A DNA stretch of 64,000 bases from Chlamydiales bacterium (GTDB lineage: Bacteria > Chlamydiota > Chlamydiia > Chlamydiales > JAAKFR01), in contig JAJACG010000009.1 in the NCBI GenBank assembly GCA_022601635.1, positions 6,081 to 70,080 on the forward strand, in the 5' to 3' direction. Every line of letters starts with the position of its first letter. Position 1 is the first letter of the stretch. The notes below the pieces were generated by a model. The model was not told where the DNA came from. It made no database searches and worked only from the letters and a program-made list of their open reading frames with translations. Position numbers and translations under genes: made by a program. Of the stretch, positions 23,701-30,881 are shown one piece after another.

Positions 23701-24342
23701 TCAATTCACTCCATTGTTCAAATAGTCAAACATAGCATCTTCAAGCGCTGAATGAAGTGTTACAGGGCTCTCGAGCTCGCATTGCGAGCGGTGGCACTGT
23801 GTGCCACAAGGCGGCGTAGCCTCCTTACGAGAGCCCCGTAGAATCTCTACTGCTTCCTCATACGTCTCAAAATGTACATTTTCAGCTGGTTGCACTTCTT
23901 TAGATAGATCCAACCTTGAATACCGAATCCTTCCATGTGAGAGTGAGACCCCTGTAATGTAATCTTGATTCTTATCACAGGGATCAGGTCCGAATATCGA
24001 TAGGCGATATCTATCGACTAGAGCATGCGGATCTGTAAAGCACTCTAGAAATGCTTGATTTGATCGTATGATATCAGTCAAGCTTTCGACTAGCTTGACT
24101 ATCTTTGCTCTTGCGGTGTCGACGGTTAGTACATCATAGGTATCAAATGAGACTGTTACCAGGTATATTTCTTCTTCCGAAGCACCACCTCCTGTGCCAA
24201 CCGCAAACAGATCATTGTCTCGCTCTTTTTTTACAAGGAGATCAACTATCTGATCTAATCGAGTATAGGGATTATCAGGCTTTTCTTTTTGCTGACACGA
24301 TGCCATACAAAAAAGTATCAGTATTCCGATAATGAATCTCAT
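23701..24342 (-). CDS. Lipoprotein, putative cognate immunity protein (copy 1)
   Basis: Lipobox MASC; ATGA overlap with the Rhs stop at 24339-24342; paralog of 22983..23534. Confidence 0.7.
   Translation of the reverse strand: MRFIIGILILFCMASCQQKEKPDNPYTRLDQIVDLLVKKERDNDLFAVGTGGGASEEEIYLVTVSFDTYDVLTVDTARAKIVKLVESLTDIIRSNQAFLECFTDPHALVDRYRLSIFGPDPCDKNQDYITGVSLSHGRIRYSRLDLSKEVQPAENVHFETYEEAVEILRGSRKEATPPCGTQCHRSQCELESPVTLHSALEDAMFDYLNNGVN
23761..23840. repeat. Four-way-junction (cloverleaf) palindromic element, copy 2
   Basis: TACAGGGCTCTCG A [GCTCGC-ATT-GCGAGC] G [GTGGCAC-TGT-GTGCCAC] [AAGGCGGC-GTA-GCCTCCTT] A CGAGAGCCCCGTA. Confidence 0.88.
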
Positions 24343-27300
24343 TTTATGCCTCTGCTCAAGTAGTCAAACATATCATCTTCAAGTCGCTTTTCAAAAGTGG
24401 GGCTCGTAATCGAGTGGTCAAAACCTCGCACCGATGGATGGGAATCCAACACCGTTACCGAACCCCTATTCTCCCAAAGACCCGCTCCTCCTATCCAAGG
24501 TATCGGATCGCGATGCGGTTTGGCCACATAATTTGTTGCACTATGACACAAATTTCTCGTAATTGGCGTCGCAGGTGCAAAAGCCGCTGTTGTAATACGA
24601 TTGCGTAAATCATCAGGCAATCTCTGCAAGGCCGCCTTGCCCTGCATCGCACCCTCACTATGTGGAATATACATCAACGTCGATCCCGCACTGCTCAGCA
24701 AACCCTCCATCGCCCCCTTCGCAACTCCCACCTGACTAAACTCACGACCCCCAACCCTCTCCAATACTACCCGTGCAAAATCACGCAGCCCACTCGACTT
24801 GTTCTCAATCATATGCACATTGTAACCACCACTTAAACGCGATAAATGCAATGCATTCTGAGTGCGAACAGCATCACTATTCCTCATCCCATTATGATAG
24901 AGAAAACTACGACCCGGTGGCATCTCTTTCACTGGATAACCCATACTCCTCAAATCAGTCACTCCTCCCACTTGTGGATTCACCCAACTCTCAGGCACCC
25001 TCGACATCAACTGCTTAGTCATATACCCAGCCGGCGTATAACCCCACATGCGACTCAATAAGCTCTGGTCCGCTAAACCATACAGATCAATATGATGCGG
25101 ATTTCCATGCACATAACCATATCTGTTCGGGCCATCATGATACCCCTCAGGATCAGGCGTCAACCAACGACCCAACTCCGGAATATAATAACGCCTCCCA
25201 AAATAGATCAAACCCGTCTCAGGATCACTCCTCTTGGAACAAAAACGCCAAGATCCATCTGTATCCCCTACACCAAATGCATCATAATCAAAACTTTGTC
25301 TCTTTTTGGAGTTAAGAAGAGTACGCACAGAGCCGCGATGATCATGCAGCGGAACAAATACCTTGTCCCCCCTCTCTATCAGCACCGCTGCCCCAATCTC
25401 AGCACCCAATCCCTCACCCAAAATGCGCAATTCATTTATCACAAGCTCATTATGAATGCAGTAGTCATGTTTCTTCGGTGTAAACCGACCAATCTCATTC
25501 TGACCATCCCACAAGAAATAACTCTTAGCCCCCTTCACATTCTTCCACAAACGACGATGAAAATTGTCATAGCCATACTGCGCAGAGGGAACCCCCACTA
25601 ATCTATTCTGCGAATCATAAACAAATCCGTGAAGCAGCATGTTCCCATTTGCATCATACTCATAAGAAGAGAGCTGCCCCAACTCATCCACCTCATAATC
25701 CGCACTCAACCTGTTCGATAATGAATCATGACAGTAATGCTTTTTATCCTCCTCAATCAACTGATCCAAGCTATCATACCGATACCGACGACTATTCTCA
25801 GAAAGTACGTTGCCACTTGCATCATAACTATATCTCAAATCTAGCGAAGGGGCCGAAATATGGAGCGGCCTGCCCAATGCATCGCGCTCAATCTCTAAAC
25901 GGCCAAAACCATGCATCAGATGACAGCCCGTTATCAATCCATCCTCAGCACGCTCATATATATGCTTCTGACCATTGCGCGTTACCGACTTCAAATAAGC
26001 CCCCATATAAGTATAGGTAACCTCACTCTTGTCCGGTAAAATTAACTTTGTGCGCTGACCATCACTATTATATGACGATCTAAAACAGGCACCATTGCCC
26101 AAACACTCCTCAACCATCTCACCATGCACATTAAAGCTGCGCTTCGTCTTCATACCCAAGCAGCGATCCTCCACCAGAGTCATATTGTCCGCAGCATCAT
26201 AGCTGTAGTTATAGTCAAAATCAGCGCCGCGGTAACGTGATACCCGACCAAATTCATCATATTCATAGTGGTGAAGATCCCCTGAGGGTAACTCCACTCT
26301 TTGTAAACGGCCCATTTTGTCATATGACCTAGATGTTCTACGCCTGCCAGCCTCAAGCAACCACTCCACTCGATCGCCTGGACCATAGCCATACTCATGA
26401 CAGACAGCGCCGCGAGATCTACCATTCACATAGATCGAATCCTCACGCCTCACACAGTTACCCCTTCCATCATACGCCTTCTTTGTCATGGAACATTTGC
26501 GCCCAGATGGATCGGTCTTATAAATCAAAGAGACTCTATCGCAGCTGTCATACTCCATATGCGTCGTCACACCAGAGGGAAGCCTCTTTGCCACAAGCAA
26601 GCCATTGCGATAGCTACTCTCAGTGCACTGACCCAACTGGTCCACCTCCATAATCAACTGCCCCTGACCATTGTAAAAACGCTCAAAAATCCCCCTCGAA
26701 CTCTCCTCCCATATCAAACGCCCACACTCATCAAATCGATAGCTCACCTCATTCCAAGCTCGATCATGCGCCACCCTCTTCTTTCTCACGACTCGATCTA
26801 AATTGTCATACTCAAAAACATAGACAGAGTCCCCAGCAACCCTGTGCGAAAGACGACCACGCGCATCATAGTAGAAAAAGGCGCGCCTCCCCCCCTTAGT
26901 TTCCTCAACTTTCTGCCCCAAGATGTTATAAACATAACTGCTCTTTATACCACTAAACTCCTCCTCCTCAATCAAGAGAGGACCCTCATAAACAGCATGA
27001 TAGCGCCGATCACCCTGACTCTTGGAAATCAGCTGGTCACAAATATTGTAACTGTAAGTTGTCTCCATACCATGACGATCCGTTGAGGAAATCAAACGAC
27101 CATACTCATCATATACAAAGCTTTCACATCCACCATCTGGATGCTTTACCTCAACTGGTAATGAACGCTCATTATACTCTGTAGAAGTAACAAACCCATT
27201 GCGATCACGACGCTTCACTACATTGCCCAATGGATCATATTCTAAACTCTCAAACGTACCATCAGCGTAGTCAGTCCGAAATAGACGCCCCGAAGCGTCA

Positions 27301-29336
27301 TAGCTATACAACTCCTTATAACCACTTGGCTTCGTCATACTAATCAACTGACCAGCAGGATTATAGCTTTTATAGGTCACTAAATCTCCATCATGCACCT
27401 CAATCGGCCTATTCGCAGCATCATAAATTGTGATAATTTGCTGATTACCCAGCACCTTCTCAATTTGATTGCCTCGATCATCATAGCTGTAACGCGTCTC
27501 ATTACCCTCAGCATCAATAGTAAGAATCAGGTTTTCCTTCTCATCATACTCATTCGATATGGTGTAGCATAAAGAGCCATGGGCATCATAGTGCCGTTCA
27601 CTGGAAATTTTGCCGGCTGGTGTGTACAAGTAGACTCTTTTCTGGATCAGACTTTCCTCTTCATCAAACTCCTCAACAACCTCAGGTAAACCGTAATTTG
27701 GGAGTGTGCGCCGCGGCTGAATCTTTTTGATGCGTCTATGTTTCCCGTCAAAATGCTCCGTACGAATCAAACAAGCCGCATAATCATATCTGTTTTTGGT
27801 CCAACTCAACTCCTTTGCTCCATCAAACAGCGCCTCATAGGTAATGAGGTCACGGTTATCCTCATACTCATAGATAGTGCGCTTTGCTCCCTCACGCCTC
27901 TCAATGATGCGGTTGTTATCATCAAACTCGCGAAAAATCGTTGTCCCAGCAAAGCTCTCTTCAATACGGTTGTGATGCACATCATATTTATAGGTTGTCT
28001 TTGAAAGCTCACACCCACCTTTGTCACAAATACTCTTAGAAAGAAGATCTCCAAGCTCACTCCACTTACTCTTGTGAATGGCATCAGCTGTTTCGACCTC
28101 ATAGACGCGCTTGTTCTTGTCATAACGGTAGATCGTATGATTGCCAGCTCCATCTGTCACAACTGTATAGCCATGCCCATAAACATAGCTCGCTACAATC
28201 ATATCACCAGGACCATAGATTCTTTCAACACGACGCCCCGCTCCATATTCAATGCGAATAGGCATGCCATCTTCCGTCACAGAGCGCTCCAAAAGAGCAT
28301 ACTTCTTGTAATGAGCTAGCTTTTTCTGCGGCTTTAAGCCCTTTTTGTTCTTCCAGCCATATTGATAGCTCTGATCTGCACCATCTGGACGTTCAACAGA
28401 AGAGAGTAGAAGATCAAAGATATAGGGATGCTTTCTCTTGCTATTCTTCTCAATCACTGTGCGCAATTCCAGCTCATAGCTAGCTATTCTTCCATCGCTG
28501 CCAGAAATCACAACCTGCTTCGAAATGTGATTGTTCTTTGGTCCCATTCTTTTGGGATATTTGATGCTGATTTCACCAAGCTTAACTCGCATCGAACTAT
28601 CAACCGCTACAATGTGTGAAAGAACATAATAGGCTGGATCAGATGTATGGTTATGCGCATAGTCCAAGTATTGGTAGAAAAGGTAATTTCCATTAGGCAA
28701 TCTCTCCCTTTTTACCTTGGCCATAAATGGCGGCGGCAGTCTCGTCTGCATCGCACGTGCAATTGGATCCACTTCAATTGCAGGCCACGCTTTATACTCA
28801 CTCTCATAGCTAATTTTAGTGCCATCACCTCTTTTGATCTCGCCAGAAAAGATGAAATAGGGCTCTGGACTACTCCTGTCCCACTCCACAACAGTGTTGG
28901 CAGGATGCCTTCCCCCACTGATCTCTCTATGCACATAACTCTTTGCATCTAGGAGTTCTATCCGATCGTTTTTCTTCCAATGCTCGAAGCGGTAAAAGCC
29001 ACCATCAGCAGTTCCATGGCCTACGAAGGGTTCAATCTCTGAAGAACAGAGACTAAATAGTACAAGCGATTCAGGATTCACGCTCCAGTGGCCATTTGCT
29101 AAATCACCATCACAAAAATGGCCATAGAAGCGCCTATATGAAATTGGCTGTACACCCGAAACAACCAGGTCGGTCTGCACTTCGCAATACTCACCTGTAA
29201 TCGGATTCACATTGAAAGGAAGCGCTGTGCGAAAATCGGCATCCGTCCGCCTCATGTAAGTCTCATTGTTGGAATAGAGCGAAACATCATTTGCGGAGAA
29301 AAGCGGAAGAGAGAGTAGTAGGAAAAATATAAACAT
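24339..29336 (-). CDS. Rhs/YD-repeat polymorphic toxin with Sec-type signal peptide and alpha/beta-hydrolase-like C-terminal domain
   Basis: VNPITGEY (DUF6531-like), many YD repeats, Rhs core SDPETGLIYFGRRYYIPELGRWLTPDP...NRYGYVHGNP..IDLYGL; tip has PHSEGA, DPIP and DHS. Confidence 0.9.
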   Translation of the reverse strand: MFIFFLLLSLPLFSANDVSLYSNNETYMRRTDADFRTALPFNVNPITGEYCEVQTDLVVSGVQPISYRRFYGHFCDGDLANGHWSVNPESLVLFSLCSSEIEPFVGHGTADGGFYRFEHWKKNDRIELLDAKSYVHREISGGRHPANTVVEWDRSSPEPYFIFSGEIKRGDGTKISYESEYKAWPAIEVDPIARAMQTRLPPPFMAKVKRERLPNGNYLFYQYLDYAHNHTSDPAYYVLSHIVAVDSSMRVKLGEISIKYPKRMGPKNNHISKQVVISGSDGRIASYELELRTVIEKNSKRKHPYIFDLLLSSVERPDGADQSYQYGWKNKKGLKPQKKLAHYKKYALLERSVTEDGMPIRIEYGAGRRVERIYGPGDMIVASYVYGHGYTVVTDGAGNHTIYRYDKNKRVYEVETADAIHKSKWSELGDLLSKSICDKGGCELSKTTYKYDVHHNRIEESFAGTTIFREFDDNNRIIERREGAKRTIYEYEDNRDLITYEALFDGAKELSWTKNRYDYAACLIRTEHFDGKHRRIKKIQPRRTLPNYGLPEVVEEFDEEESLIQKRVYLYTPAGKISSERHYDAHGSLCYTISNEYDEKENLILTIDAEGNETRYSYDDRGNQIEKVLGNQQIITIYDAANRPIEVHDGDLVTYKSYNPAGQLISMTKPSGYKELYSYDASGRLFRTDYADGTFESLEYDPLGNVVKRRDRNGFVTSTEYNERSLPVEVKHPDGGCESFVYDEYGRLISSTDRHGMETTYSYNICDQLISKSQGDRRYHAVYEGPLLIEEEEFSGIKSSYVYNILGQKVEETKGGRRAFFYYDARGRLSHRVAGDSVYVFEYDNLDRVVRKKRVAHDRAWNEVSYRFDECGRLIWEESSRGIFERFYNGQGQLIMEVDQLGQCTESSYRNGLLVAKRLPSGVTTHMEYDSCDRVSLIYKTDPSGRKCSMTKKAYDGRGNCVRREDSIYVNGRSRGAVCHEYGYGPGDRVEWLLEAGRRRTSRSYDKMGRLQRVELPSGDLHHYEYDEFGRVSRYRGADFDYNYSYDAADNMTLVEDRCLGMKTKRSFNVHGEMVEECLGNGACFRSSYNSDGQRTKLILPDKSEVTYTYMGAYLKSVTRNGQKHIYERAEDGLITGCHLMHGFGRLEIERDALGRPLHISAPSLDLRYSYDASGNVLSENSRRYRYDSLDQLIEEDKKHYCHDSLSNRLSADYEVDELGQLSSYEYDANGNMLLHGFVYDSQNRLVGVPSAQYGYDNFHRRLWKNVKGAKSYFLWDGQNEIGRFTPKKHDYCIHNELVINELRILGEGLGAEIGAAVLIERGDKVFVPLHDHRGSVRTLLNSKKRQSFDYDAFGVGDTDGSWRFCSKRSDPETGLIYFGRRYYIPELGRWLTPDPEGYHDGPNRYGYVHGNPHHIDLYGLADQSLLSRMWGYTPAGYMTKQLMSRVPESWVNPQVGGVTDLRSMGYPVKEMPPGRSFLYHNGMRNSDAVRTQNALHLSRLSGGYNVHMIENKSSGLRDFARVVLERVGGREFSQVGVAKGAMEGLLSSAGSTLMYIPHSEGAMQGKAALQRLPDDLRNRITTAAFAPATPITRNLCHSATNYVAKPHRDPIPWIGGAGLWENRGSVTVLDSHPSVRGFDHSITSPTFEKRLEDDMFDYLSRGIK

Positions 29337-29391
29337 GTACCACTTATAAATTTGATATGAACTTTTTGTGAAGATAAAAGTGCGCTTTGTG

Positions 29392-29397
29392 TATACT
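29392..29397 (+). promoter_or_regulatory. Possible sigma70-type -10 element upstream of the hairpin array
   Basis: TATACT about 10 nt before the first CTTAGGAGA; no convincing -35 at 17 bp. Confidence 0.3.
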
Positions 29398-29407
29398 TTC
29401 TGCCAAA

Positions 29408-29839
29408 CTTAGGAGATACTGAACATCTACCGTTTGGCAGATTTTGCCAGAATTTTCGATTCGGCAAAAGATGCCGGACGGGAGTTAATCAGTGGCTTCC
29501 TTAGGAGACATTGAATAAGTACCTTGCCAGAGATTTTGGCAAGATTTCTATCGAGGGGAGGTTCGGAGCCGAACGTCTAACCCCTTGCGGGTTAGTCAAG
29601 GCGAGAACGATGCCTCGATAGAAAGATTGACGGAAGATCTGGGAAGGGAGTTGTTTAGTGGCTCCCTTAGGAGACACTGATTAACTCGGTTATTGGAGAT
29701 TCTGCCAAGATTTGAGACGCTGGGAAATTCGGAGCCTGAAGCTAACCCCTTGAGGGTTAGTGAAGGCGAGAATGATGCAGCGGCGCGAAGATTAGCGGAA
29801 GATTCAATGAGCGAGTTATTCAGTGTCTCCCTTAGGAGA
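29408..29839 (+). repeat. Tandem array of three rod-like hairpin units (88, 162 and 161 nt) separated by CTTA; candidate structured RNA
   Basis: CTTAGGAGA at 29408, 29500, 29666 and 29831. Units 29412-29499, 29504-29665 and 29670-29830 have 18-nt imperfect terminal inverted repeats and covarying internal stems. Confidence 0.85.
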
Positions 29840-29843
29840 TAAA

Positions 29844-30881
29844 ATGGCAGCAGCACAACCAAGCCCCTACTACCACGCAATTTTGTGGACGGGCGAACAT
29901 GTAACCGTCTACACCCCAGAAAAACCAAGAACAGTTGGCCATCTTGTCCTCAGAACAGGTGTGAAAACTTTTGCTGACCTTTCTAAAGAGGCTCATCTGG
30001 AAATTATGACCCTGGCTCAGAAGGTGAAATCGATAAAACCTCAGCTTGATTTTGTTATCTATTGGACAAAAAGAGATGGTGAGCTGCTTACCGAAATCTT
30101 GCCGCAAAGATCTGCTGGAAAAGCTCTCAACGCCATGGACAAGCTGAGCGTCAACAAGCATATCTTCTGCCCTGAGGGGATCACAGATGATATCAAGCCC
30201 TCTGTTAGATCCACCCAAGTTGCAAGAGATCGCCAATCTTGGCAAGGCGCACTCACCCTTGCTCCCAATCTACCCCAGATGGAAGATACCAAAGGTTCCT
30301 GGAAACTAGAGATCTCCCACCTCGATGATGCAGTGACAATGGCAAGATGGGGACTACGACAGATATTAGGAAGTGAGGAACCTGGTGTAAAGCCAACCCT
30401 TACAGCGGTTGATCAGCCATCTGATATCGTAGAAAAAGAGATGGGCCCTTGCCCCTTCTGCAAGCCTGAAGTTTTGGCAAAGCAAACCATTGTTTCTAGT
30501 GAAGGGGTTCGGCTTCTCTATAATATTCAGGGCAACGATCGCTTTTTACTGATTCCTGAGCGCCACTGCCCCAATATCTGCTATCTAAATCCGGGGGAGG
30601 TCACCGCAATGTACAATATTGAACAGAGACTGCGTCAGATCTTAGGAGAAGAGAATAGCTCTTGGCAAATCGTCACTCTTGAACAGGGGGGGCCCGCTGT
30701 CGGCCAATCTGTTCGACACGCACACCTTCAAATCGTCCCCTTTGATCCGGAGATGATCGAAATGCAGGGATTGACAGCTGCTGTCAATAATATGTCAAAG
30801 GCACCTAAAATTATTTCTGATCAGGAGATGGCTCAGACAACGCAATACTATCGCGAAAAGATGATGCCAGCTTCAAGTTAG
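29844..30881 (+). CDS. HIT-superfamily nucleotide hydrolase/transferase with degenerate N-terminal HIT-like domain
   Basis: CPFC, FLLIPERH, GPAVGQSVRHAHLQIVP (HxHxQ); N-terminal KPRTVGHLVL. AGGAGA RBS precedes ATG 29844. Confidence 0.65.
   Translation: MAAAQPSPYYHAILWTGEHVTVYTPEKPRTVGHLVLRTGVKTFADLSKEAHLEIMTLAQKVKSIKPQLDFVIYWTKRDGELLTEILPQRSAGKALNAMDKLSVNKHIFCPEGITDDIKPSVRSTQVARDRQSWQGALTLAPNLPQMEDTKGSWKLEISHLDDAVTMARWGLRQILGSEEPGVKPTLTAVDQPSDIVEKEMGPCPFCKPEVLAKQTIVSSEGVRLLYNIQGNDRFLLIPERHCPNICYLNPGEVTAMYNIEQRLRQILGEENSSWQIVTLEQGGPAVGQSVRHAHLQIVPFDPEMIEMQGLTAAVNNMSKAPKIISDQEMAQTTQYYREKMMPASS

What the first reader, a model, noticed from the sequence alone, without database searches (positions are those of the whole stretch)
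29408..29839. Array of three covarying rod-shaped hairpins: candidate new structured RNA or repeat family
Seen: the unit pattern is CTTA-[GGAGAYAYTGA...AGTGKCTYC] three times, then CTTA-GGAGA. Stems differ in sequence between units but stay paired: CCGTTTGGC/GCCGGACGG (unit 1), CCTTGCCAG/CTGGGAAGG (unit 2), TTATTGG/TCAATGA (unit 3); also TTTCTATCGAGG/CCTCGATAGAAA (unit 2) versus CGCTG/CAGCG (unit 3). Purine-rich motifs (AGATT, GGAAGAT, TTCGGAGCC, AAGGCGAGAA) and the apical CTAACCC-CTTGM-GGGTTAG hairpin are conserved in units 2 and 3; unit 1 lacks the apical half. Many mismatches are G-U on the plus strand, and a TATACT lies just upstream. Inference: selection on a plus-strand RNA fold. Options are a processed multi-unit ncRNA, a protein-sponge or antitoxin-like array for the downstream HIT enzyme, or a domesticated MITE with CTTA target sites. 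It matches no RNA family I recognise.
Basis: partly seen in the sequence, partly recalled or inferred. Interest (0 to 1): 0.85.

Follow-up and report, generated by a model that had tools for sequence, protein, structure and literature searches.

The report
Three tandem copies of a MITE
The three hairpins are side-by-side copies of a small non-coding mobile element present about 200 times in this sponge-associated chlamydial genome; it is ordinary in kind, but its copies are unusually well aligned with the direction of DNA replication.

Summary
Window 29408-29834 holds three head-to-tail rod hairpins (88, 162 and 161 nt), each bounded by CTTA. The + strand folds far better than shuffles (z -14).

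It is not a locus-specific RNA. The unit is a dispersed repeat with 196 copies (118 full-length) in this 1.64 Mb genome. It has 15-16 nt inverted ends and 4-bp target duplications that are YTAR-like. Its ends match, 16 of 16 nt, a decayed IS5-family transposase remnant in the same genome. Intact IS5 relatives with related ends occur in other chlamydial genomes. So it is a fold-back MITE of the IS5 family, inserted three times in tandem at one CTTA site upstream of the HIT gene. That gene has no detectable homolog in two other genomes that carry the element.

Some features go beyond an ordinary MITE:
- Stems covary across subfamilies and two genera (38 of 58 pairs).
- G.U outnumbers A.C about 5:1 on one sense.
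- A 48-nt apical core is nearly invariant.
- 133 of 156 loci here, and 23 of 29 copies in a second genus, point the same way relative to GC skew, independent of gene direction.

Single copies decay nearly neutrally, so the fold seems to be kept among master copies. Transcription is untested.

The parts
29408..29411 (.). CTTA, first copy of the 4-bp target-site duplication
   Evidence: Family-wide, the 4-nt flanks are identical in 53 of 118 full copies against 0 of 118 in the control. The fourth base covaries, Fisher p 9e-7.
29412..29499 (+). Unit 1: an 88-nt internally deleted MITE copy. It keeps both inverted ends and the outer arms but lacks the apical half.
   Evidence: nhmmer matches model positions 1-58 only.
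29500..29503 (.). CTTA, shared duplication between units 1 and 2
   Evidence: Loose ends of contigs from other copies begin at 29503 (table 7).
29504..29665 (+). Unit 2: a full-length 162-nt MITE copy. Left inverted end 29504-29518, right inverted end 29651-29665, apical hairpin 29577-29595.
   Evidence: nhmmer 143 bits.
29666..29669 (.). CTTA, shared duplication between units 2 and 3
   Evidence: loose ends at 29669/29670.
29670..29830 (+). Unit 3: a full-length 161-nt MITE copy of another subfamily, 72% identical to unit 2. Left end 29670-29684, right end 29816-29830, apical hairpin 29742-29760.
   Evidence: nhmmer 145 bits; the two units are 72% identical; DNA fold -42.8 kcal/mol on + against -30.7 on -.
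29831..29834 (.). CTTA, last copy of the duplication
   Evidence: loose ends lie behind 29830/29832.
29835..29839 (+). GGAGA: the likely native Shine-Dalgarno sequence of the downstream gene. It resembles the start of the element's left end.
   Evidence: Read from the sequence. Solo insertion sites prefer C-TTA-R-G-G. The function as a ribosome-binding site is inferred.
29844..30881 (+). Downstream gene, 345 aa from the ATG, with a weak HIT domain. It is a bystander.
   Evidence: PF01230, E 1.3e-6. No homolog at E<=1e-10 in 5 relatives.
24339..29336 (-). Divergent upstream gene: a 1665-aa RHS-repeat protein. It is a bystander.
   Evidence: PF05593, E 4.9e-56.

Best explanation
The array is three independent insertions, in tandem and in the same orientation, of a non-autonomous fold-back MITE derived from an IS5-family insertion sequence.

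The element is about 162 bp and non-coding. It has 15-16 nt terminal inverted repeats (GGAGAYACTGAATAA type) and the whole unit folds as a rod. An IS5-type DDE transposase supplied in trans would move it, making a 4-bp YTAR-like target duplication (inferred from anatomy).

New copies prefer a target resembling C-TTA-R-GG. That sequence is recreated at the junction beside a resident copy. So copies pile up head-to-tail and share one duplication, which here is CTTA. This site happened to lie just upstream of the HIT gene's ribosome-binding site. The element has no dedicated relation to that gene.

The covarying stems, the G.U excess and the near-invariant apical core reflect selection among the few master copies that still propagate. 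Individual inserted copies decay almost neutrally.

Orientation is set with respect to replication, not transcription. It is probably set at or soon after insertion. The better-folding, purine-rich sense lies on the C-rich strand, which by convention is the lagging-strand sequence.

Shown: copy number, ends, duplications, the IS5 remnant, covariation and the orientation bias. Inferred: mobilisation in trans, how arrays form, and the cause of the orientation bias.
For: Copy number:
- blastn finds 165 merged loci totalling 24.9 kb.
- Two rounds of nhmmer find 196 non-overlapping copies, 118 of them full-length.
- Summed contig depth over the repeat in three public DNA runs is about 100 times that of the flanks.

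Target duplications:
- The 3-nt flanks are identical in 68 of 118 copies, against 1 of 118 in the control.
- The 4-nt flanks are identical in 53 of 118, against 0 of 118. The fourth base covaries, p 9e-7.
- 27 of those 53 are YTAR, the IS5 target motif (passages of PMC5009759).

Partner element:
- G000:C1 carries an exact 16-nt end. About 140 nt further lies a 71-aa C-terminal transposase remnant.
- The remnant matches NF033581 (IS5 family) positions 228-285.
- Intact homologs (52-58% identity) occur in other chlamydial families. They are about 1.17 kb, encode 314 and 322 aa, and score 329 and 320 bits to NF033581.
- One has ends matching the second genus's MITE ends 15 of 15. Another is flanked by TTAA.

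Genomic context:
- Copies are intergenic and enriched between convergent genes. Among the 127 of 196 copies that lie between two called genes (30 at contig edges and 39 inside crude ORFs are set aside), 60 are convergent, 29 + 19 tandem and 19 divergent.
- There are 37 arrays. Abutting pairs are 33 in the same orientation and 3 opposite, and the members often belong to different subfamilies.

Covariation.

Neutral decay of single copies:
- 280 stem-disrupting private changes against 10 compensated ones.
- Paired sites carry 5.3% substitutions and unpaired sites 6.2%.

Orientation:
- 133 of 156 loci lie on the C-rich strand (p 5e-20), and 98 of 103 copies where |skew| is at least 0.04. The rate is the same in all score classes.
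- Gene strands are balanced on every contig.
- The second genus shows 23 of 29, with the orientation switching at both skew inversions of a 1.8 Mb contig.
- The target motif itself is not strand-skewed.

Precedent: replication-linked orientation has been reported for IS families, including a subset of IS5, together with beta-clamp binding (PMC3971601, abstract and sections 12, 13, 16).
Against: - No intact IS5 partner was found in this assembly (97.7% complete, but repeats break it). The only DDE_Tnp_1 match is the remnant.
- No orthologous empty site was examined, and transposition has not been demonstrated.
- Only about half of the full copies still have perfect duplications.
- The interior of the element shows no similarity to the IS beyond the 16-nt end.
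- A plain selfish-MITE model does not by itself predict three features: the 5:1 G.U:A.C asymmetry in two genera, the near-invariant apical core, and the 85-95% replication-linked orientation.
- The assignment of leading and lagging strands rests on the GC-skew convention. The two dnaA paralogs of the second genome lie at neither skew inversion.
Confidence: 0.85

Rival explanations
1. The elements are host-retained RNA elements in the manner of REP, ERIC or bcr1. On this view each copy, once transcribed within neighbouring mRNAs or from its own promoter, folds as the + sense rod and modulates mRNA stability, processing or termination. The array would then tune HIT or RHS expression.
For: - The + sense RNA fold is strong (z -14).
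- Stems covary.
- G.U:A.C is 124:25 and 72:13 in the two genera.
- Purine-rich loops and the apical core are conserved across genera.
- bcr1 is a precedent: a mobile repeat with compensatory changes that is transcribed (passages of PMC3184786).
Against: - Orientation ignores flanking genes. In tandem-gene contexts 29 copies are antisense and 19 sense.
- The + sense would be transcribed head-on to replication.
- No sigma-70-like promoter is predicted in the array (0 found).
- Single copies accumulate uncompensated stem changes, 280 against 10, and paired and unpaired sites evolve at like rates.
- The C>T excess on the + sense is also seen at unpaired sites, so part of the G.U excess may be mutational.
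Confidence: 0.1
2. The array is a dedicated, locus-specific structured ncRNA (processed multi-unit RNA, protein sponge or antitoxin) serving the downstream HIT enzyme.
For: The array sits directly upstream of the HIT gene, on the same strand, and ends at its ribosome-binding site.
Against: - There are 196 copies in all kinds of intergenic context.
- The element occurs in two other genomes where no HIT homolog was found with this query.
- Units 2 and 3 belong to different subfamilies, so they are independent insertions.
Confidence: 0.02
3. The element moves as single-stranded DNA, like IS200/IS605-derived palindromic elements or REP/REPIN with RAYT. On this view a Y1 (HUH) transposase recognises the folded strand at the replication fork, which would explain both the strand-specific fold and the orientation bias.
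For: - The fold is strand-asymmetric: DNA fold -42.8 against -30.7 kcal/mol.
- Orientation is replication-linked.
- IS200/IS605 is the classic case of such a bias (PMC3971601, section 16; PMC5027513, abstract seen in the listing).
Against: - Variable 4-bp direct duplications flank the copies. IS200/IS605 and REPs make none (recalled).
- No Y1_Tnp match was found in any of the three genomes that carry the element, while the same search hit 6 of 14 control genomes.
- The ends match an IS5-family DDE element.
Confidence: 0.03

Closest known systems
IS5 (IS5 family, DDE_Tnp_1) and MITEs derived from such insertion sequences
   Same: - The partner transposases match NF033581 'IS5 family transposase' at 329 and 320 bits (cut-off 140), and also PF01609 and DUF772.
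- The 4-bp duplication is enriched for YTAR, as reported for E. coli IS5 (PMC5009759, passages).
- The terminal inverted repeats are 15-16 nt.
- From recall only: E. coli IS5 ends also carry a GAATAAG motif.
   Different: - This element is 162 bp and non-coding.
- Apart from the 16-nt ends, its interior is unrelated to the IS sequences seen here.
- The whole element is a fold-back rod.
- Only 27 of 53 intact duplications are strict YTAR. ATAA, TAAA and CTTA also occur.
bcr1 repeats of the Bacillus cereus group
   Same: They are dispersed units of about 155 bp, flanked by short direct repeats, with base-pair compensatory changes that maintain a structure (passages of the review PMC3184786).
   Different: bcr1 has 5-bp direct repeats and a two-stem cruciform-like fold, and it is known to be transcribed. 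Here the duplication is 4 bp, the fold is a single rod, an IS5 partner is identifiable, and there are no RNA data.
Correia/NEMIS, ERIC, Nezha and Chunjie bacterial MITEs
   Same: They are 100-235 bp TIR elements with flanking direct repeats and very stable predicted hairpins, found mostly in intergenic regions (PMC3184786, passages).
   Different: - Those families have other ends and other duplication lengths. Chunjie's is 9 bp per the review. TA for Correia is recalled.
- The passages I read mention no replication-linked orientation for them.
- This family is restricted to 3 of 400 sampled Chlamydiota genomes.
Replication-linked orientation bias of insertion sequences (Gomez et al. 2014, PMC3971601)
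   Same: Orientation correlates with GC skew, independently of gene orientation. A subset of the IS5 family ('IS5a') is among the biased families, and its transposase peptide binds the beta clamp. The authors argue that the bias is set by the transposition mechanism, not by selection.
   Different: That survey concerned full-length ISs, found the bias mainly in Firmicutes, and saw no consistent direction for IS5a. Here a non-autonomous MITE in Chlamydiota shows 85-95% bias in the same direction in two genera.
REP/REPIN-RAYT and IS200/IS605 palindromic derivatives
   Same: Both are hairpin-forming dispersed repeats with a strand-specific fold and replication-linked orientation.
   Different: Those are moved by Y1 HUH transposases and lack target duplications. 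Here duplications are present, and no Y1_Tnp gene was found in the three carrier genomes.

Membership tests
MITE (non-autonomous derivative of a DDE insertion sequence) | Small (<300 bp) with no coding capacity | tested here: met
   Full copies are 160-165 nt. The only ORFs across copies are short - sense frames created by the repeat itself.
MITE (non-autonomous derivative of a DDE insertion sequence) | Terminal inverted repeats | tested here: met
   The first and last 15-16 nt are complementary in nearly all 118 full copies. The left end is mostly GGAGAT..., and the right end read inward is mostly GGAGAC....
MITE (non-autonomous derivative of a DDE insertion sequence) | Target-site duplication of fixed length and variable sequence | tested here: met
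   3-nt flanks identical in 68 of 118 (control 1 of 118). 4-nt flanks identical in 53 of 118 (control 0 of 118). The fourth base covaries. No orthologous empty site was examined.
MITE (non-autonomous derivative of a DDE insertion sequence) | Many dispersed copies | tested here: met
   196 copies at 156 loci on 32 of 33 contigs; about 29 in a second genus.
MITE (non-autonomous derivative of a DDE insertion sequence) | Ends shared with an autonomous element that encodes the transposase | tested here: met
   An exact 16-nt end lies beside an IS5-type transposase remnant in the same genome. An intact IS in another chlamydial genome has ends that match the second genus's MITE ends 15 of 15. No intact partner was found in the window's own genome.
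MITE (non-autonomous derivative of a DDE insertion sequence) | Mobilisation in trans by that transposase | not testable with these tools
   This needs a transposition assay.
IS5 family (partner element) | DDE_Tnp_1-type transposase matching the curated IS5 model | tested here: met
   NF033581 scores 329 and 320 bits (cut-off 140) for the intact homologs. The G000 remnant scores 58.5 bits over model positions 228-285.
IS5 family (partner element) | 4-bp duplication at YTAR | tested here: inconclusive
   A length of 4 bp is supported. 27 of 53 intact duplications are YTAR and the rest are near variants (motif from PMC5009759).
REP/REPIN-RAYT or IS200/IS605-derived palindromic element | Y1 (HUH) transposase in the genome, and no target duplication | tested here: not met
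   PF01797 was found in 0 of 3 carrier genomes, while the same search hit 6 of 14 control genomes. Duplications are present.
Any curated structured RNA family (Rfam 15) | A match at the family's gathering score | tested here: not met
   0 matches over the 64 kb window. Only E 0.47 and 2.7 microRNA-model hits appear in the permissive scan.
Transcribed structured repeats (bcr1- or ERIC-like) | Transcription of the repeat and an RNA-level effect | not testable with these tools
   No RNA run is listed for this organism.

The most novel reading that the evidence does not exclude
The family may be more than a selfish MITE. It may be a strand-polar structured element whose + sense single strand must fold, either as DNA at the replication fork or as an intermediate of transposition.

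On this reading, an IS5-type DDE element would propagate through, or be filtered by, a single-stranded hairpin stage coupled to replication. That would account for four observations together:
- the 5:1 G.U(T):A.C asymmetry in two genera;
- 38 of 58 covarying pairs;
- four same-sense AGAT-type loops plus a near-invariant apical core;
- 85-95% co-orientation with replication.

Alternatively, the host may have kept the copies as polar chromosome-organising sites.
Probability: 0.12. Interest if true: 0.7.

Novelty: new member of a known kind. Interest (0 to 1): 0.35.

Why it matters
- For the scan: it shows that a striking 'covarying RNA' signal can come from a MITE family, and that copy number in the same genome settles the matter.
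- For mobile-DNA biology: it is a clean natural data set of 196 copies in a 1.6 Mb obligate-symbiont-type genome, plus a second genus. In it, a TIR/TSD element has a very strong replication-linked orientation, abundant compensatory change and frequent junction-targeted tandem insertion. This could be used to test whether IS5-type transposition is coupled to the replisome.
- For genomics of environmental chlamydiae: the family makes up 1.5% of the genome, breaks the assembly at many contig ends, and expanded in one species. Its sister species has about two degenerate copies.
- My four paper searches on MITEs and repeat elements (three of them chlamydia-specific) found no description of a chlamydial MITE.

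Tried and rejected
- **Rfam:** no family fits.
- **Promoters and terminators:** no sigma-70-like promoter is predicted in 29250-29900. The two terminator-like hits are simply inner arms of units 1 and 2.
- **RNA evidence:** no RNA holder is listed. The three runs that hold the stretch are DNA.
- **Laying Logan contigs of those runs:** no contig spans the array, and the joints are repeat cross-matches, so no presence/absence polymorphism could be read. The only use was the depth ratio and the places where other copies' flanks begin.
- **Other transposases as partners:** rve was found in 0 of the two same-genus genomes and Y1_Tnp in 0 of 3. The second genus's own 287-aa DDE_Tnp_1 IS (4 copies) has unrelated ends.
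- **Linkage to the HIT gene:** not found.
- **Orientation explained by transcription:** rejected.
- **Orientation explained by a strand-skewed target motif:** rejected. CTTARG occurs 368 times on one strand and 389 on the other.
- **Orientation explained by slow purging of old copies:** not supported. The bias is 27/31, 47/52, 41/50, 30/34 and 26/29 across score classes.
- **G.U excess as proof of selection on pairing:** left open. Private changes give WC>GU 103 against WC>AC 64. However, C>T also exceeds G>A at unpaired sites, 12/152 against 24/986.
- **Anchoring the origin by dnaA in the second genome:** failed. The paralogs lie at 0.117 and 0.624 Mb, while the skew inversions are at about 0.51 and 1.36 Mb.
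- **Not attempted:** an empty-site comparison with the sister species, because the intergenic DNA was expected to be too diverged.
- **Crude gene calls:** my gene calls (longest ORFs) are crude. The 39 copies 'inside' ORFs mostly lie in short frames created by the repeat.
- **Rows dropped:** copies with model ends beyond positions 3 or 160 were left out of the 118 'full' set (78 of 196). Clusters with fewer than 4 members were left out of the private-mutation counts (48 of 118). A1 used 30 of the 50 distinct full copies then held as loci.

Full report
**What is at the locus**

Between the divergent RHS-repeat gene (24339-29336, - strand) and a HIT-domain gene (ATG at 29844, + strand), the sequence reads CTTA-unit1-CTTA-unit2-CTTA-unit3-CTTA-GGAGATAAA-ATG.
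- Unit 1 (29412-29499) is 88 nt and lacks the apical half.
- Units 2 (29504-29665) and 3 (29670-29830) are 162 and 161 nt and only 72% identical to each other.
The repeat finder recovers the direct and inverted relations.
- As RNA, the + strand of 29400-29850 folds to -223.7 kcal/mol (z -14.1). The - strand folds to -165.3.
- As DNA, unit 3 folds to -42.8 (+) against -30.7 (-) kcal/mol.
- Rfam has nothing.

**It is a dispersed family**

- A BLAST of units 2-3 against the window's own genome (1,638,235 bp, 33 contigs, 97.7% complete) gave 108 matches.
- blastn with all three units gave 165 merged loci totalling 24.9 kb.
- Two rounds of nhmmer gave 196 non-overlapping copies, 118 of them full-length.
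- Many contigs end inside a copy.
- In three public DNA runs that hold this stretch, summed contig depth over the repeat is about 100 times that of the flanks.
- Mean pairwise identity of full copies is 73%, and there are three main subfamilies.

**Anatomy of a MITE**

- Full copies begin with GGAGAYACTGAATAA and end with its complement.
- The three bases outside each end are identical in 68 of 118 copies, against 1 of 118 for the next three bases outward.
- Four bases are identical in 53 of 118, against 0 of 118, and the fourth base covaries (45 A-A, 6 G-G; Fisher p 9e-7).
- The duplicated 4-mers are TTAA 14, CTAA 10, ATAA 6, TAAA 4, TTAG 3, CTTA 2 and others. 27 of the 53 fit YTAR, the motif reported for E. 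coli IS5 (passages of PMC5009759).

**The partner**

Outside the copies, one exact end lies at G000:C1:17075. About 140 nt inside it is a 71-aa open piece ending in ...RAKVEFPFRVIKQLWGHTKMRYRGLYKN.... This is the only DDE_Tnp_1 match in the genome, and it aligns to positions 228-285 of NCBIfam NF033581, IS5 family transposase.

With this piece as the query, 4 of 301 sampled Chlamydiota genomes matched, counting G000 itself.
- Two of the three other matching genomes hold intact genes of 314 and 322 aa, scoring 329 and 320 bits to NF033581.
- These genes lie in elements of about 1.17 kb.
- One element has ends AGGAACCTCTGAAAAA / TTATTCAGAGGTTCCT. These match the MITE ends of the second carrier genus 15 of 15.
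- The other is flanked by TTAA on both sides.

No Y1_Tnp gene was found in any of the three carrier genomes (G000, G001, G014). No rve gene was found in the two same-genus genomes (G000, G001), while G014 has five rve matches.

The interior of the MITE shows no similarity to these ISs beyond the ends.

**Where the copies sit**

I made crude gene calls (1540 longest ORFs, 90% of the genome). Of the 196 copies:
- 60 lie between convergent genes;
- 48 lie between tandem genes (29 antisense, 19 sense to them);
- 19 lie between divergent genes;
- 30 lie at contig edges;
- 39 fall 'inside' ORFs, most of which are short frames created by the repeat.

Convergent spacers are over-represented. They hold 47% of classifiable copies, against roughly 18% of gene junctions. 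This is what a tolerated selfish element looks like.

The HIT gene has no homolog at E<=1e-10 in five relatives, including both other carriers.

**Tandem arrays**

- There are 34 pairs and 3 triples.
- Abutting copies are 33 in the same orientation and 3 opposite. The most common gap (20 of the 33) equals one duplication.
- Members are often from different subfamilies, so they are separate insertions, not duplications.
- Solo sites show C at -1 (25 of 38), then TTA, then R-G-G.
- The junction beside a resident copy (..CTCC|TTAA) recreates that preference. This gives a simple, though inferred, route to arrays.

**Structure and covariation**

On 30 copies (18 from this genome, 12 from the second genus; alignment A1), RNAalifold predicts one rod of 58 pairs, and 38 pairs have changes on both sides.

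The count of structure pairs gives:
- 93.7% of cells paired, against 79.9% in shuffles (0 of 500 as high);
- 38-46% paired when partners are slid;
- a covariation score of 0.491 against 0.232.

G.U:A.C is 124:25 and 72:13 in the two genera, and 453:97 on all 118 copies.

Conserved unpaired parts are four same-sense AGAT-type purine loops and an apical core. The core (..AAATTCGGAGCC..CTAACCCCTTGNGGGTTAG..GGCGAGAATGA) is nearly identical between subfamily 1 here and the second genus, although arms and ends differ.

Inside subfamilies (70 copies), however, private changes at pairs are:
- 113 to mismatches, 103 to G.U and 64 to A.C;
- only 10 compensated.

Paired and unpaired sites differ by 5.3% and 6.2% from their consensus. 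The core differs by 4.3%, the arms by 5.4% and the ends by 7.5%. C>T on the + sense also exceeds G>A at unpaired sites.

My reading is that inserted copies decay almost neutrally. The fold and motifs are maintained among the master copies that still give rise to new ones. Part of the G.U excess may be mutational.

**Orientation**

- Gene strands are balanced on every large contig, yet copies are nearly uniform per contig (12:0, 0:13, 13:0, 9:0, 11:1 and so on).
- Contig GC skew (repeats masked) and net orientation correlate at Spearman -0.66, p 3e-5.
- Neighbouring loci agree 102 to 22.
- The + sense lies on the locally C-rich strand in 171 of 196 copies within +-40 kb.
- With arrays collapsed this is 133 of 156 loci (p 5e-20), and 98 of 103 copies where |skew| >= 0.04. 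The rate is alike in all score classes.
- The preferred target motif is not strand-skewed.

In the second genus, 40 sampled 20-kb windows of a 1.8 Mb contig show skew that is positive to 0.51 Mb, negative to 1.36 Mb, then positive again. Copies switch orientation with it, and 23 of 29 follow the same rule.

Calling the C-rich strand the lagging-strand sequence rests on the usual convention. The dnaA paralogs do not mark either inversion.

Replication-linked orientation is known for several IS families, including a subset of IS5. It has been ascribed to the transposition mechanism and to beta-clamp binding rather than to selection (PMC3971601: abstract and sections 12, 13 and 16 read). I found no such report for a MITE in the papers I read, but I did not search exhaustively.

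Two causes remain open. One is coupling of insertion to the replisome. The other is loss of copies whose more stable hairpin strand is the exposed lagging-strand template. The observed polarity fits the second cause. The lack of any age trend fits the first.

**Distribution**

- By BLAST, the element was found in 3 of 41 close relatives (counting G000) and in 3 of 400 sampled genomes of the phylum.
- The three carriers are this genome, its sister species (about 2 degenerate copies) and one other genus of the same family (about 29 copies). One genome could not be scored.
- Record titles returned by the pattern scan name uncultured Chlamydiaceae/Chlamydiales MAGs. The runs that hold the window are labelled sponge metagenome.

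**Verdict**

- The finding is a real and well-described structure, but it is a tandem triple insertion of an IS5-family fold-back MITE. It is not a new RNA gene tied to the HIT enzyme.
- It is a new family of a known kind.
- Its replication-linked orientation, covarying rod and conserved core are worth a specialist's second look, which keeps the score above that of a routine repeat.
- Not tested: transcription, mobilisation and empty sites.

Noticed in passing
G000:C1:17075-17425 (locus L088:1333-1683): A decayed IS5-family element. It has an exact 16-nt end, then about 140 nt, then a 71-aa C-terminal transposase fragment. The rest has been replaced by a membrane-protein gene. It is the only DDE_Tnp_1 match in the genome.
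   Followed up: yes
G000:C6:81537-81571; C26:23222-23256; C26:66629-66699: Minimal derivatives made of two inverted ends separated by about 5 nt (35-bp palindromes), plus one compound fragment. They are either extreme internal deletions or footprints.
   Followed up: partly
window 24339-29336 (-): A 1665-aa RHS-repeat protein (PF05593, E 4.9e-56) in a 1.6 Mb chlamydial genome. Its C-terminal end was not examined.
   Followed up: no
window 29844-30881 (+): A 345-aa protein with only a weak HIT/DUF4931_N match in residues ~192-303 of the 348-aa translation from 29835 that was scanned. No homolog at E<=1e-10 in five genomes of the same family, so it may be a lineage-specific gene.
   Followed up: partly
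window 29501-29677 (-), 29596-29928 (-), and similar frames at other copies: The - sense of the element is open for 58-110 codons. Gene callers are therefore likely to annotate spurious small proteins across copies. 39 of 196 copies fell in such crude ORFs.
   Followed up: partly
G000 contig ends (C5, C13, C14, C17, C20, C21, C22, C24, C25, C27, C31 starts; C4, C14, C17, C29 ends): Many contigs stop inside a copy, so the family is a main cause of assembly fragmentation.
   Followed up: no
G014:C17, four places (688362, 1378589, 1512656, 1738330; loci L086, L089): The second genus carries four copies of a different IS, encoding a 287-aa DDE_Tnp_1 transposase. Its ends are unrelated to the MITE.
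   Followed up: partly
G001 (sister species), C8:51916-52060 and C4:211728-211783: There are only about two degenerate copies, against 196 in the window's genome. The family therefore either expanded after the two species split or was purged in the sister.
   Followed up: no
G000, all 70 copies of the three main subfamilies: Private C>T changes on the element's + sense exceed G>A per site, even at unpaired positions (12/152 against 24/986). This is the opposite of what the local GC skew predicts for that strand.
   Followed up: partly
G014:C17:116890-117369 and 623720-624202: Two dnaA paralogs lie at neither GC-skew inversion (about 0.51 and 1.36 Mb).
   Followed up: no
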